Shown here: piece by piece, positions 18,455 to 21,256 of the stretch
How positions within the stretch are numbered: position 1 is the stretch's first letter
How the letters are laid out: the number at the start of each line of letters is the position of its first letter
Source of the DNA: Xylographa opegraphella
Taxonomy: Eukaryota
DNA: 64,000 bases
Assembly: GCA_022813865.1 (NCBI GenBank)
Contig: JALDZX010000005.1
Location: 1 to 64,000, forward strand
Direction: 5' to 3'
The notes under the pieces: generated by a model
The model's database searches: none
Seen by the model: only the letters and a program-made list of their open reading frames with translations
What the model was told of the DNA's origin: nothing
Translations under genes and position numbers: made by a program

Positions 18455-19097
18455 GAGGATGTAACATACCCAAGCCTTGAATAAGGACTACAATTGTACG
18501 TTTTATGCGATCACTAGCAAGAGCCTTCGTTGCGAGGATAAGAACGACGAATTTCGTCTCGCATACCACGCCATCGTTCAAGGCCATTCGATTTGGTACC
18601 GAGGAATGTCTTCAATATGTTTCCATCATTAGCGTGGCGTTCAGGAACAATCGGACACATCTTGACATCCGGACGATGCAAGTATTAGGGGTAGGTAGGT
18701 CGTCGATGGAAGTCTTAACATCTTCCGTCAAGGGGAGTGGAACGACTATGTGCTTGAACCCACAGACGTTGTATGATAGGCATAATATATAGCTTGCGAA
18801 CATAAATCTTACTGACGTATCAATTCCTAGAGCTATTCTATATTACCCACCCCTGATTTTCGCTTGATCTTGTCAGCACGCCTAATATGAATTTTGTATA
18901 ATGAGGTACGGAGCCATAAGACTTGCACAGCCGGCCAGACATCTGAGTTATCCAGTCTACATATCGGGTTCCACGGTCAATGATCTCACGCGTCTGATAA
19001 TTCGGTTCGGTCTCACAAGAGATTCGAGGATTATTTTGTTTTCTCTAAACTAGGTATCCACGCCTTCAAATGCAGATCTCGCTAGGTGTCACGCACC

Positions 19098-19982
19098 TCA
19101 AATTTCCATTGACAATATGAGCCACTGATTGCTTATATCTTCTACACCACCATTCCACGGGGCTAAAGTAGTGAGTTCGAACCCTACCCAGCCTAGGTCT
19201 CTGATGAGTCGATTCATATCGGTCGAATTGATTGAGCGATCAACACACACCGTTAGCTCCGTACATGCAAGCGCAGGATGATTGGCGAGCTCGATCAAAG
19301 CCATCAATCTATAGGGCCATTAGAACCATGGTTCGATAGCTGTAAACCTTCCACCGATCACACTTACCCTGACTTTAGATCCTTTTCCACCACACAGGGT
19401 TCAAAGAAAATGAACAAGCTCTTCGCCCCTCCATTTCCTCCCACAAAGCCTCTGAAGTTCAGATCGCTAGTGTATTCCCAAATCTCGGTCCATTCACTTA
19501 TAAACGGCTTATGCTCGGCACTCCTGGTTTGCATACCCACCACAAGTGACTTCTGTTTAACTGTCTCTCTCTCAACCAGAAAGATAGCTTCCAGCTTGTC
19601 GCAAAAGAGTCTCTCACACTCTTCCGTGATGTGGTACACAGTCCCCCCTTGGCGGCCTCTGATAGCACTTTCGGTCGGTGAGTACTCGTCGTGACTGACC
19701 GCGGCTGCCAGGGGGGGACTTCGTGGCGGTGATGGTATTCCCGAGCCGACCTCAGGAATACCACTGTGCCCCTGCAGCAACAGAACAGTCAGCAAATGTA
19801 TTCGCGAAGAGCCAACAAGGTAAAGGGAAGCCCTTACCACCAGCCCCGGTAGTGGAGTAGTGAAGCCCCTTCAGCATGGTGCAGCGGGCATCGACAGTAT
19901 AACAACTAGCGAGAATAGTAGGACGAGTCCCTGATCGATTACTACTACTATTCTTTCTGGTGTAATTGTGGGGTTTCGCCAT
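19098..19982 (-). CDS. OAZ1: Ornithine decarboxylase antizyme; needs a +1 programmed ribosomal frameshift (about 252 aa product)
   Basis: ORF1 of 54 aa (ATG 19982, intron 19772-19837) ends TGG TAT TCC TGA at 19763-19752. The +1 frame continues EVGSGIPSPP...EECERLFCD...WEY...DLKSG, then after intron 19309-19367 LMALIELA...LIRDLGWVGF, typical of fungal antizymes. Confidence 0.93.
19640..19720 (-). other. RNA stem-loop 3' of the antizyme shift site
   Basis: mRNA arm AGUCCCCCCCUGGCAGCC (19720-19703) pairs with GGCCGCCAAGGGGGGACU (19657-19640) at 16 of 18 positions, with a 45 nt loop. It starts 31 nt after the UGA. Confidence 0.75.
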
Positions 19983-20539
19983 TGGAGAAAATTGCCACGG
20001 TTGCGGTCTTTGAGAGGCGGGTGAATACCAGAGGTTGTTCAGGCACGGAGGCAATTTTATGTAGTACAAGGTAATACGATTTCCAACTTGACCTTCAGTG
20101 AAGGGTAGGATGACAAACTGCTGAAGTGGCACGAGAAAGAACATCTAGTGCGTGCGGGACTAGCGGCTGAATGTCGGGCCGCAACGTGTAGCGCAAGCGG
20201 CCCATAATTGGTTGGAGTCCACGTCACAAGGACGACCTTCCCATACCGACTGCAGCCCCTCATCACACCCGGAAGGTCACGGCTGGCCTAGAACGGTGGT
20301 AATAATGCAGCAGAGGATGCCTATCACTAAACTACTTCCCCTGCCTCTTCTGACTGTCCAATTGTTCATATATGGTGATCTTCTCCCAACATTTCGCCTA
20401 TAGCTCTGATGCGATACCTCTTCGTAGCGTTCTTAGGCTATCCAATTTCAGCCATATGACTGAGTGACATCCATAATAGGGTCAAGTCAAGAGGGCCCAA
20501 ATCACAATCTGCATAAAGACCAGACCAACCTTCTTCTCT

Positions 20540-21256
20540 ATGGCGTTTCTCAACCGACTTCCCCCTCCATCTATCTTCCCCACCTATCTCCTTCCCTCCT
20601 TGCCGTTCAGCAGGCGCAAGACCAGCACGGACTCCACGAGTTCAGCCGAGACCAACGACTCGGTAGAAGCCCAAAACACCGCCCCATCACCACTTCCTGC
20701 TGCATACCTCAGCGGGCACACTTCCTACCTTCGTTGTGGTCGCTGTGGTACGGATCTTTGCTTCACTTCTCAAGTCATTAGCAAGGGCTTCACCGGACGC
20801 CATGGGCGGGCATACCTAGTCTCTGCATCCACAAGTGCTCATGGACATTCCACGAACGGTTTATACGATGTGCCGCCATCGTTACCTAATACTCATATCC
20901 ACAAGGTTGTGCCCCGCCAGCTGGTTACTGGCGCTCATACTGTCAGCGACGTATCCTGCGCTTTCTGCGGTAATATGCTAGGATGGAAATATGTTGATGC
21001 AGAGGAAGAATCTCAGAGGTACAAGGTGGGAAAATTTATTCTAGAGACAAAGAAGATTTGCACCGCGGTTAGCTGGGACAACGTTGAAGGAGCGAGGAGT
21101 GAACTGCCGCTGTTCGACACAGAAGCAGAAGACAGTATTGAATTTGACAGTCAAGACGAGGATGAGTGCGAGGATCTTTTTTCGGGCCTATGGGACCCTT
21201 CTTCGGCGTTGAAAAGGAGACGTCTTAGAAGATTTGGTCGTGAAGACTCAAGGTGA
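20540..21256 (+). CDS. Yippee/YPEL (Moh1-like) zinc-binding protein
   Basis: CGRC...SKGFTGRHGRAYL...LVTGAHTVSDVSCAFC...LGWKY...KVGKFILE. Single exon. Confidence 0.9.
   Translation: MAFLNRLPPPSIFPTYLLPSLPFSRRKTSTDSTSSAETNDSVEAQNTAPSPLPAAYLSGHTSYLRCGRCGTDLCFTSQVISKGFTGRHGRAYLVSASTSAHGHSTNGLYDVPPSLPNTHIHKVVPRQLVTGAHTVSDVSCAFCGNMLGWKYVDAEEESQRYKVGKFILETKKICTAVSWDNVEGARSELPLFDTEAEDSIEFDSQDEDECEDLFSGLWDPSSALKRRRLRRFGREDSR

What the first reader, a model, noticed from the sequence alone, without database searches (positions are those of the whole stretch)
19745..19771. Hidden +1 programmed ribosomal frameshift in the ODC antizyme gene
Seen: after splicing, ORF1 ends GGG GCA CAG UGG UAU UCC UGA G, and the antizyme domain (EVGSG...EECERLFCD...LMALIELA...LGWVGF) lies in the +1 frame with no start of its own near the site. 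The next AG downstream (CACAG) gives the wrong frame, so no nearby alternative splice rescues it. Established: antizymes use a polyamine-stimulated +1 shift at the last ORF1 codon before UGA, with UCC-UGA in mammals and S. pombe. The mechanism is known, but it is invisible in the ORF track and easy to mis-annotate.
Basis: partly seen in the sequence, partly recalled or inferred. Interest (0 to 1): 0.75.

Follow-up and report, generated by a model that had tools for sequence, protein, structure and literature searches.

The report
Fungal antizyme gene +1 frameshift site
This is the ornithine decarboxylase antizyme gene of a lichen-type fungus, which like almost all antizyme genes can only be read if the ribosome slips forward one base at a UCC-UGA site; it is a real but already well-described mechanism.

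Summary
A minus-strand gene (ATG 19982, stop 19098, two introns) has a 54-codon ORF1 that ends UGG-UAU-UCC-UGA-G (19763-19751). The +1 frame carries 198 codons with no AUG before residue 74. It matches Pfam ODC_AZ across intron 2 (profile 1-44 and 46-114).

The same two-frame layout, with a UGG-NNN-(UCC/CCC/GUU/GGG)-UGA-G site, occurs in 78 of 80 related metagenome loci. Fourteen of these have no intron at all, so splicing cannot join their frames.

The window also carries the other signals that Ivanov & Atkins (2007) described for the N. crassa / A. nidulans group of fungi:
- a stem-loop that starts 32-34 nt after the stop and is supported by covariation;
- the nucleotide-conserved GGAAGAGUGUGAGAG... 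(EECERLFC) block about 16 nt after that stem;
- a conserved ORF1 tail.

The closest proteins are from Xylographa species, whose gene models bridge the site with invented splices.

Verdict: a genuine programmed +1 frameshift cassette, and a new member of a known kind, so low interest. One modest extra is that the ORF1 tail (L/F)HYSTTGAGGA is conserved as a peptide. It aligns in register with the proven Agaricomycete nascent-peptide stimulator.

The parts
19838..19982 (-). Exon 1, coding part. ORF1 starts at ATG 19982-19980 and encodes MAKPHNY...ILASCYTVD...LKGLHYSTTGAG + the first base of a Gly codon.
   Evidence: The start agrees with the Xylographa model P0004 (MAKPHNH...). Homology of the related-species contigs X3 and X4 ends at 20010.
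19772..19837 (-). Intron 1: 66 nt, GTAAGG...GCTGAC...CAG, phase 1. It is in frame and stop-free if retained.
   Evidence: The same intron position (17 nt before the stop) is found in 18 unique related loci, with lengths 50-107 nt. Eighteen unique related loci have the joined sequence contiguous. A soil RNA contig lacks a net 66 nt here (weak evidence, depth 4, side 20).
19839..19868 (-). Codons for G-L-H-Y-S-T-T-G-A-G, the exon-1 part of the conserved ORF1 tail. The tail continues as G|GG GCA at 19838 plus 19771-19767.
   Evidence: in 33 unique relatives these positions are conserved as amino acids (0.73-1.0) while third bases vary freely. They align in register with the Agaricomycete nascent-peptide signal quoted in PMC1874602 and tested in PMC4505036.
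19750..19764 (-). Shift cassette core G-UGG-UAU-UCC-UGA-GG. The P-site codon UCC is 19757-19755, the ORF1 stop UGA is 19754-19752, and the U at 19754 is skipped.
   Evidence: reading TCCT as one step gives a continuous AQWYSEVGSG.... G-UGG and UGA-G-G are invariant in alignment A2, though TGG was required when those loci were picked.
19368..19753 (-). ORF2, exon-2 part, in the +1 frame: EVGSGIPSPPRSPPLAA...EECERLFCD...FRGFVGG...DLKSG (last codon split by intron 2).
   Evidence: Pfam ODC_AZ matches residues 85-128 to profile positions 1-44, E 2.1e-11. The N-terminal part is conserved in relatives.
19641..19719 (-). 3' stem-loop. The 5' arm GUCCCCCCCUGGCAGCC is 19719-19703 and the 3' arm GGCCGCCAAGGGGGGAC is 19657-19641, with a loop of about 45 nt. 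It starts 32-34 nt after the stop.
   Evidence: The stem is present in the MFE and centroid folds (z -1.95). A homologous stem is found in most relatives. Covariation is seen at columns 128/323, 131/320 and 134/316. It matches the element described in PMC1874602.
19599..19625 (-). Conserved block GGAAGAGUGUGAGAGACUCUUUUGCGA, encoding EECERLFCD.
   Evidence: TGT in 48/48, AGA or AGG in 48/48 and CTC in 46/48, so synonymous choice is restricted. The block is described in PMC1874602.
19309..19367 (-). Intron 2: 59 nt, GTAAGT...TAG, splitting a Gly codon.
   Evidence: The Pfam profile runs 1-44 before it and 46-114 after it. Relatives read DLKPGLMALIEL across the junction. A soil RNA contig lacks a net 59 nt here.
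19098..19308 (-). Exon 3: LMALIELANHP...RDLGWVGFEL...SMEI plus the stop TGA at 19100-19098.
   Evidence: Pfam ODC_AZ profile positions 46-114, E 2.3e-19.

Best explanation
This is the ornithine decarboxylase antizyme gene of a Lecanoromycete (Xylographa-like) fungus. It is expressed by programmed +1 ribosomal frameshifting.

Proposed mechanism:
- Ribosomes start at AUG 19982 and translate a 54-codon ORF1 after removal of a 66-nt intron.
- With UCC in the P site and UGA in the A site, a fraction of ribosomes skip the U of UGA and continue with GAG GUC... in the +1 frame.
- The product is a 252-residue protein whose C-terminal half is the ODC_AZ domain.

By analogy with characterised antizymes, the shift efficiency should rise with polyamine level, which closes a negative feedback loop on ODC. 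The likely stimulators are:
- the nucleotide-conserved G-UGG-UNU-YCC-UGA-GG core;
- the peptide-conserved ORF1 tail (L/F)HYSTTGAGGA, acting in the exit tunnel;
- a covarying stem-loop 32-34 nt downstream of the stop;
- the nucleotide-conserved GGAAGAGUGUGAGAG block about 16 nt after that stem.

Shown here: the gene anatomy, family membership, conservation and covariation. Inferred: the frameshift event itself, its polyamine dependence and the role of each element.
For: - Family: Pfam ODC_AZ matches both +1-frame pieces, with the profile running continuously across intron 2.
- No own start: ORF2 has no start codon upstream of residue 74, yet its N-terminal 73 residues include the invariant ECERLFC and the conserved IPSPPRSPPLAA.
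- Conserved layout: 78 of 80 related metagenome loci carry TGG-NNN-(TCC|CCC|GTT|GGG)-TGA-G at the ORF1/ORF2 overlap (60 loci, 16, and L028 and L069 in the list). Two loci are truncated.
- Splicing cannot explain it: 14 loci have an uninterrupted ORF1 and a full ORF2 with no intron, and one of them (L034) ends in poly(A).
- Splice junction: the spliced ORF1 tail of the window...HYSTTGAGGAQWYS, equals the contiguous tail of L017 apart from one residue.
- Stem-loop: covariation score 0.183 against 0.126 in shuffles (0 of 500 shuffles reach it). At columns 131/320 the pairs are CG 25, UA 17, UG 3, GC 1, other 2.
- Conserved block: codon choice in the ECERLFC block is restricted.
- Demonstration: reading TCCT as one step gives an open frame across exon 2.
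- Literature: UCC-UGA is the majority antizyme site, and UGG is conserved two codons upstream of it (PMC5009743, passages). The stem-loop, the conserved block and the 5' conservation of this fungal group are described in PMC1874602 (sections 10 and 11).
Against: - There is no RNA or protein data from this organism. The only run holding the stretch in full is probably its own source assembly.
- The RNA contigs that lack the two introns come from relatives at 80-95% likeness, and the intron-1 joint is weak (depth 4, side 20).
- The window's stem-loop folds only modestly better than shuffles (z -1.95; 9 of 200 shuffles fold as well).
- In the register most relatives use, the window's stem has only 7 contiguous pairs.
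- The slide -1 control for the stem scores almost as high (0.177 against 0.183), because the C and G runs can slip.
- The UCCCU element reported 3 nt after the stop in N. crassa and A. nidulans is absent here (GGUCGGCUC).
- The base after UGA is G, which is an efficient termination context in vertebrates.
Confidence: 0.92

Rival explanations
1. The two frames are joined by splicing rather than by the ribosome. An alternative intron, for example from donor 19837 to the acceptor ...CCCCCCUGGCAG ending at 19705, removes the stop and fuses ORF1 to ORF2. Automatic gene models of relatives do something similar.
For: One search lists 41 single GT..AG excisions of 40-400 nt that give an in-frame, stop-free fusion. 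Three of them use the real donor GTAAGG. Annotated relatives are modelled this way (P0004, P0010, P0016, P0025).
Against: Every one of the 41 removes a conserved block: the ORF1 tail, the IPSPPRSPPLAA segment or the 5' arm of the covarying stem. Fourteen related loci have no intron at all and still need the frame change. Soil RNA contigs lack exactly 66 and 59 nt, which are the lengths of the two proposed introns. PMC1874602 reports that ESTs contradicted this kind of annotation in C. neoformans.
Confidence: 0.03
2. There is no recoding. ORF1 is an independent small or upstream ORF, and the antizyme domain is made by reinitiation or leaky scanning at Met74 of ORF2 (AUG in ...VVGMQTRS...).
For: Met74 lies 11 residues before the start of the Pfam ODC_AZ match, so a product starting there would keep the whole domain.
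Against: The 73 residues before Met74 are conserved in the +1 frame, and I42, E45 to C51, F58, L59 and E61 are invariant. That Met is not conserved: relatives have T, A, V or P in that column. The shift-site core is conserved far beyond what a uORF stop would need.
Confidence: 0.02
3. The frame break is an artefact or a decay product: a one-base assembly error or a pseudogene.
For: The only run holding the stretch in full is probably the assembly's own source, so it is not independent.
Against: The same break at the same codon is found in 78 of 80 independent metagenome loci. Both ORFs are intact, and the flanks carry conserved, covarying signals. The Xylographa models read GHSGIPEVGSG, the same +1-frame reading as the window's across the site.
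Confidence: 0.02

Closest known systems
Antizyme genes of the N. crassa / G. zeae / M. grisea / A. nidulans / B. graminis group (Ivanov & Atkins 2007, PMC1874602, Fig. 4A group)
   Same: The ORF1/ORF2 +1 layout is the same. A stem-loop starts 31-41 nt after the ORF1 stop with a large loop (here 32-34 nt after the stop, loop 45-60 nt). The GGAAGARUGUGAGAG... block encoding EECER(L/F)FC(D/E) follows at about 16 nt. Conservation extends far 5' of the site.
   Different: The host is a Lecanoromycete, a class not named among the listed species in the sections I read. The UCCCU motif 3 nt after the stop is absent. The window's G run is one base shorter, so its best stem uses a register shifted by one and extends to about 15 pairs with two mismatches.
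Mammalian antizyme 1 and S. pombe antizyme (UCC-UGA)
   Same: The P-site codon UCC is followed by UGA, and UGG lies two codons upstream (W-x-S-stop). The shift is +1, and ORF2 has no start codon of its own.
   Different: Nothing matched a vertebrate-type antizyme pseudoknot in Rfam. The base after the stop is G, not U. The 3' signals are the distant stem-loop plus the ECERLFC block.
Agaricomycete antizyme with a nascent-peptide stimulator (Yordanova et al. 2015, PMC4505036)
   Same: An 11-residue ORF1 tail is encoded at codons -15 to -5 in their numbering. Theirs is YYYSTTFSGGP and the window's is LHYSTTGAGGA, identical at 6 of 11 positions in the same register and followed by x-W-x-shift codon. 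Both are conserved as peptides with synonymous third-base variation.
   Different: The shift codon is UUU there and UCC here. The 3' structure differs: two stacked stem-loops within 65 nt there. No experiment exists for the Pezizomycotina peptide.
S. cerevisiae OAZ1 (GCG-UGA-C)
   Same: It is a +1 shift at the last ORF1 codon before UGA in an antizyme gene, regulated by polyamines.
   Different: It has a different, intrinsically shift-prone site, and regulation works through inhibitory nascent-peptide elements. None of its sequence features are seen here.

Membership tests
ODC antizyme (Pfam PF02100 ODC_AZ) | Protein matches the ODC_AZ profile above the gathering score | tested here: met
   44.2 bits (profile 1-44) and 69.8 bits (profile 46-114), against a cut-off of 24.2.
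ODC antizyme (Pfam PF02100 ODC_AZ) | Sequence relatedness to solved antizyme structures | tested here: inconclusive
   the only 4 PDB hits of the family profile are ODC antizyme 1 chains, but E is 0.28-0.53.
ODC antizyme (Pfam PF02100 ODC_AZ) | Binds ODC, targets it for degradation and lowers polyamine uptake | not testable with these tools
   This needs biochemistry. No ODC partner sequence was examined.
Antizyme-type programmed +1 frameshift | A short ORF1 overlaps a longer ORF2 in the +1 frame, and ORF2 lacks its own initiator | tested here: met
   ORF1 is 54 codons, ORF2 is 198 codons, and there is no Met in the ORF2 frame before residue 74.
Antizyme-type programmed +1 frameshift | Shift at the last sense codon of ORF1 (UCC in most) directly before UGA | tested here: met
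   UCC-UGA at 19757-19752. Relatives use UCC, CCC, GUU and GGG, always with UGA-G.
Antizyme-type programmed +1 frameshift | [quoted passage not shown] | tested here: met
   UGG-UAU-UCC. The criterion comes from PMC5009743.
Antizyme-type programmed +1 frameshift | The frameshift occurs on ribosomes and is stimulated by polyamines | not testable with these tools
   No expression, profiling or proteomic data are available for this organism. Only contigs of relatives were seen.
Pezizomycotina-type antizyme recoding cassette (PMC1874602, Fig. 4A group) | Stem-loop starting 31-41 nt 3' of the ORF1 stop, with a loop of 18-130 nt | tested here: met
   it starts 32-34 nt after the stop with a loop of 45-60 nt. 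Covariation in the family is shown.
Pezizomycotina-type antizyme recoding cassette (PMC1874602, Fig. 4A group) | Conserved GGAAGARUGUGAGAG... block 16 nt after the stem, encoding EECER(L/F)FC(D/E) | tested here: met
   The block is at 19625-19599. In alignment A2 it starts 16 columns after the last base of the G run in the 3' arm.
Pezizomycotina-type antizyme recoding cassette (PMC1874602, Fig. 4A group) | Extended conservation 5' of the site ('module F', up to about 95 nt) | tested here: met
   the ORF1 tail is conserved back to at least the (S/A)(C/A)YxV motif, about 26 codons upstream. Here the conservation appears at the peptide level. The published module F consensus is in a figure and was not seen.
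Vertebrate antizyme pseudoknot element (Rfam family; name recalled from memory) | Covariance-model match 3' of the stop | tested here: not met
   no antizyme family appears among the matches up to E = 10 in 19400-20000. Only sub-threshold miRNA and snoRNA hits were returned.

The most novel reading that the evidence does not exclude
The ORF1 tail (L/F)HYSTTGAGGA may be a polyamine-sensing nascent-peptide stimulator of the frameshift, homologous to the one proven only in Agaricomycetes. In the window these are codons -15 to -5 counted from the shift codon as -1, spanning 19865-19838 plus 19771-19767. In 33 unique Pezizomycotina-type sequences the tail is conserved as amino acids, with free synonymous change that includes TCN/AGC serine switches. 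By contrast, the last four codons and the ECERLFC block are constrained as nucleotides. If so, the peptide signal would date back to the common ancestor of Ascomycota and Basidiomycota and would operate in the largest fungal subphylum. The 2016 review passage I read says Agaricomycetes are the only case where bioinformatics pointed to such a signal.
Probability: 0.4. Interest if true: 0.45.

Novelty: new member of a known kind. Interest (0 to 1): 0.15.

Why it matters
For annotation, the gene should be recorded as one CDS with a +1 ribosomal slippage at 19754. It should not be split, truncated or 'repaired' with an invented intron, as has happened in the closest annotated relatives.

Biologically, it adds a lichen-forming Lecanoromycete to the known range of the antizyme autoregulatory circuit. 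It shows that the full set of recoding signals known from filamentous ascomycetes is retained there.

The comparative set gathered on the way (80 loci) gives fresh covariation support for the distant 3' stem-loop. It also gives a testable hint that the nascent-peptide stimulator is not confined to mushrooms.

Tried and rejected
- Own genome: the genome search 'own' for PF02100 failed because no genome is held for this window. I could not check for a second antizyme copy or for the ODC gene.
- Sequencing runs: the look-up of sequencing runs found one full holder, probably the source assembly, plus three runs with small shares.
- Read laying: read laying used contigs only, so it gives no depth, strand or expression information. 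Its lists of differences and indels were truncated (156 and 19 rows not shown). I therefore cannot state that the related-species contigs X3 and X4 are identical at the shift site. Parts of the stretch without RNA cover mean nothing.
- Rfam: the scan of 19400-20000 gave no antizyme element. Sub-threshold miRNA hits at 19638-19722 on the + strand merely reflect the hairpin.
- Solved structures: the PDB profile search gave only non-significant antizyme hits.
- Earlier scan notes: nothing for this genome, and one unrelated giant-virus note.
- Intron retention as a regulated isoform: intron 1 is 66 nt, in frame and stop-free. I rejected a regulated isoform as unsupported. The ORF1 frame stays open through the intron in 3 related loci (L029, L044, L068) as well as the window. 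Seven of 19 introns at this position (18 unique loci plus the window) have lengths divisible by three. This is about what chance gives.
- First automatic site picker: it mis-called loci that have an intron between the site and the ECER block. One pick (L073) was wrong and was corrected.
- Literature search for a GGG-UGA antizyme site: nothing found.

Full report
**What is there**

The feature lies on the minus strand. From ATG 19982-19980 an ORF runs MAKPHNY...HYSTTGAG. It then meets a canonical fungal intron at 19837-19772 (66 nt, GTAAGG...GCTGAC...CAG) and resumes as G|GG GCA CAG UGG UAU UCC UGA G. UCC is at 19757-19755 and UGA at 19754-19752. The intron happens to be in frame and stop-free, so ORF1 ends at the same UGA whether it is spliced (54 codons) or not (76 codons).

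The +1 frame, starting at GAG 19753, reads EVGSGIPSPPRSPPLAA...EECERLFCD...DLKS. After a 59-nt intron (19367-19309, GTAAGT...TAG) it reads G-LMALIELA...RDLGWVGFEL...MEI-stop at 19100-19098. The conceptual product has 252 residues. Reading TCCT as a single step gives one open frame through exon 2. The motif TGGNNNTCCTGAGG occurs once in the window, against 0.01 expected.

**Family**

The two +1-frame pieces match Pfam ODC_AZ (PF02100) at 44.2 and 69.8 bits, against a cut-off of 24.2. They cover profile positions 1-44 and 46-114, so the match is continuous across intron 2, whose split Gly codon is position 45. ORF1 alone matches no family.

A profile of the family finds only ODC antizyme 1 chains in the PDB, but the hits are not significant (E 0.28-0.53).

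The closest database proteins are from Xylographa trunciseda (80%), X. bjoerkii (78%) and Trapelia coarctata (56%). The window therefore comes from a lichen-forming Lecanoromycete.

**Why the ribosome, and not splicing or a second start**

*No start codon for ORF2.* The ORF2 frame has no Met upstream of the site, on either genomic or spliced sequence. Its first Met is residue 74. Yet the 73 residues before that Met are conserved in relatives: I42, E45 to C51 (ECERLFC), F58, L59 and E61 are invariant in 18 sequences. The Met itself is not conserved.

*The same layout in relatives.* I fetched 80 related loci from metagenome contigs.
- 78 of the 80 carry TGG-NNN-(TCC|CCC|GTT|GGG)-TGA-G at the ORF1/ORF2 overlap.
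- These comprise 60 loci with the site contiguous and in frame with the ECERLFC anchor and 16 more found with a relaxed search, most with an intron just after the site.
- L028 and L069 appear in the list.
- The remaining two (L058, L072) are cut off upstream.
- TGG was part of the search pattern, so its conservation there is by construction. The unconstrained picker also returned GTGG in most loci.

*Intron-free relatives.* Fourteen loci have an uninterrupted ORF1 carrying the conserved tail and an uninterrupted full-length ORF2 (L002, L003, L009, L014, L015, L017, L023, L034, L049, L051, L052, L053, L070, L076). L034 ends in a poly(A) run. Whether these are transcripts or intron-less genes, no intron is available there to join the frames.

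*A conserved intron position.* Intron 1 sits at the same place (17 nt before the stop, phase 1) in 18 other unique loci, with lengths of 50-107 nt. The spliced tail of the window...HYSTTGAGGAQWYS, lines up with the contiguous tails, for example L017 ...FHYSSTGAGGAQWYS.

*RNA contigs.* In a soil metatranscriptome, contigs of relatives (80-95% alike) lack a net 59 nt at intron 2 (skip 93 with 34 letters between; depth 12.7, side 50). They lack a net 66 nt at intron 1 (skip 70 with 4 letters between; depth 4, side 20, which is weak). Two related-species assemblies cover 19097-20010. Their differences in intron 1 are indels, or a replaced segment of a different length.

Forty-one single GT..AG excisions give an in-frame, stop-free fusion. 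Each of them deletes the conserved ORF1 tail, the conserved IPSPPRSPPLAA segment or an arm of the covarying stem.

The gene models of relatives do exactly this kind of thing:
- P0004 reads into the intron and then jumps into the ORF2 frame.
- P0010, P0016 and P0025 cut the site out.
- P0018, P0020, P0027 and P0032 start in the ORF2 frame.

Ivanov & Atkins already reported this error for fungal genomes (PMC1874602, passage).

**Recoding signals**

*5' side.* In 33 unique ORF1 tails the positions G-F-H-Y-S-T-T-G-A-G-G-A are conserved as amino acids (0.73-1.0). These are codons -15 to -4 with the shift codon counted as 0. Third bases vary freely there: Gly at -15 uses all four codons, and Ser at -11 uses both TCN and AGC.
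- The 33 came from 38 unique tails. Five with a length difference were dropped (L023, L045, L049, L054, L055).
- For 11 loci the script recovered no tail.

By contrast, codon -3 varies in amino acid (Q, G, K, E, R, L) but its third base is always G. G-UGG and UGA-GG are invariant in alignment A2. So the proximal core looks constrained as RNA and the part upstream of it as peptide.

The same division was shown experimentally for Agaricomycetes (PMC4505036, abstract and passages). Their 11-residue signal YYYSTTFSGGP (consensus from PMC1874602) aligns with the window's LHYSTTGAGGA at 6 of 11 positions. The register is the same, and both are followed by x-W-x-shift codon.

*3' side.* The window folds into a stem GUCCCCCCCUGGCAGCC / GGCCGCCAAGGGGGGAC (19719-19703 with 19657-19641) in both the MFE and the centroid structures. 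The whole-segment z-score is only -1.95. A homologous C-run/G-run stem is found in most relatives. Its 5' arm typically starts 31-43 nt after the stop, and its 3' arm ends at a near-constant distance from the ECERLFC block.

On the 48-sequence alignment A2 the 14-pair consensus shows covariation:
- Columns 128/323: CG 39, UA 7, UG 2, none unpaired.
- Columns 131/320: CG 25, UA 17, UG 3, GC 1, other 2.
- Columns 134/316: CG 21, UA 8, UG 5, other 14.
- Covariation score 0.183 against 0.126 ± 0.010 in shuffles (0 of 500 shuffles reach it).
- The slide -1 control is nearly as high (0.177), because the homopolymer arms can slip.
- Pairs 135-137 are mostly unpaired.

By my reading of the frames in the window row of A2, the covarying 5'-arm positions are synonymous third bases of Pro codons. 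Their partners are second bases of Gly/Glu codons. This argues for selection on the RNA.

*Conserved block.* The GGAAGAGUGUGAGAGACUCUUUUGCGA block (19625-19599) follows. Its codon choice is restricted in the 48 sequences: TGT 48/48, AGA or AGG 48/48, CTC 46/48.

*Agreement with the literature.* All three 3' features, and the long 5' conservation, are what Ivanov & Atkins described for the N. crassa / A. nidulans / B. graminis group. They report a stem-loop 31-41 nt after the stop, a loop of 18-130 nt, and a block 16 nt later encoding EECER(L/F)FC(D/E) (PMC1874602, sections 10 and 11). They call the position of the stem 'paradoxical', because it lies outside the ribosome at the moment of the shift. 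That remains unexplained.

The UCCCU motif they report 3 nt after the stop in N. crassa and A. nidulans is absent in the window. No Rfam antizyme element matches.

**Verdict**

The finding is a genuine antizyme +1 frameshift cassette. The mechanism, the shift site, the flanking signals of this fungal branch and the annotation pitfall are all in print. Only the host lineage is new. The frameshift itself and its polyamine control are inferred from conservation, not observed.

**What I saw of the papers**
- PMC1874602: passages, outline, parts 1 and 2 of section 10 (of 3), and all of section 11. Its supplementary alignments and figures were not seen.
- PMC5009743: passages only.
- PMC4505036: abstract and passages.
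- PMC2375905: search listing only.

Noticed in passing
L016:1188-1220 and L025 (same sequence): A related antizyme locus has the site UGG-UUA-GGG-UGA-G, so its P-site codon is GGG. ORF2 is full length (250-251 aa, with WVGF), and an intron acceptor lies 17 nt before the stop. [quoted passage not shown] A search for 'antizyme' together with GGG-UGA found no paper.
   Followed up: partly
Related loci L001-L080: Among 49 unique site contexts, CCC-UGA is the commonest (23), followed by UCC (13, including the window) and GUU (12). The passage of PMC5009743 seen calls CCC-UGA a tiny minority. In all 49 contexts the stop is UGA followed by G.
   Followed up: partly
window 19772-19837; L004, L005, L008, L010-L012, L029, L037 and others: The position of intron 1 (phase 1, 17 nt before the ORF1 stop, inside the conserved peptide-coding tail) is shared by 18 unique related loci. 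A second lineage (L018, L020, L026-L028, L031, L040, L062, L071, L079, L080) has an intron beginning about 10 nt after the stop. So introns cluster tightly around the shift site.
   Followed up: partly
window 19772-19837: Intron 1 is 66 nt, in frame and stop-free. A retained-intron mRNA would insert 22 codons into ORF1, between the conserved peptide and the shift site, and would still stop at the same UGA. The frequency of such introns in relatives is about what chance gives.
   Followed up: yes
L001:672-820; L024: The closest metagenome relative (L001, 61% identity) reads EEGERLF, and L024 reads EESERL. In both, the first Cys of the otherwise invariant ECERLFC block is replaced.
   Followed up: no
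window 20480-21256 (+): The divergently oriented neighbour encodes a Yippee/Mis18-type zinc-binding protein (Pfam PF03226, E 1.4e-14). The antizyme 5' region and this gene lie about 500 bp apart.
   Followed up: partly
window 19875-19877: An in-frame AUG lies 19 codons before the shift codon (…TMLKGLHY…). The X. bjoerkii model P0005 starts at the equivalent Met. Several relatives have Met at this or the next position (…MALKGFHY…). It is a possible alternative start that would yield only the conserved tail.
   Followed up: no
P0004, P0005, P0010, P0016, P0018, P0020, P0025, P0027, P0030, P0032: Public gene models of antizyme in Xylographa, Trapelia, Cryomyces, Coniosporium, Geoglossum and Trichodelitschia bypass the shift site. 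They use invented introns, read through the intron, or start in the ORF2 frame.
   Followed up: yes
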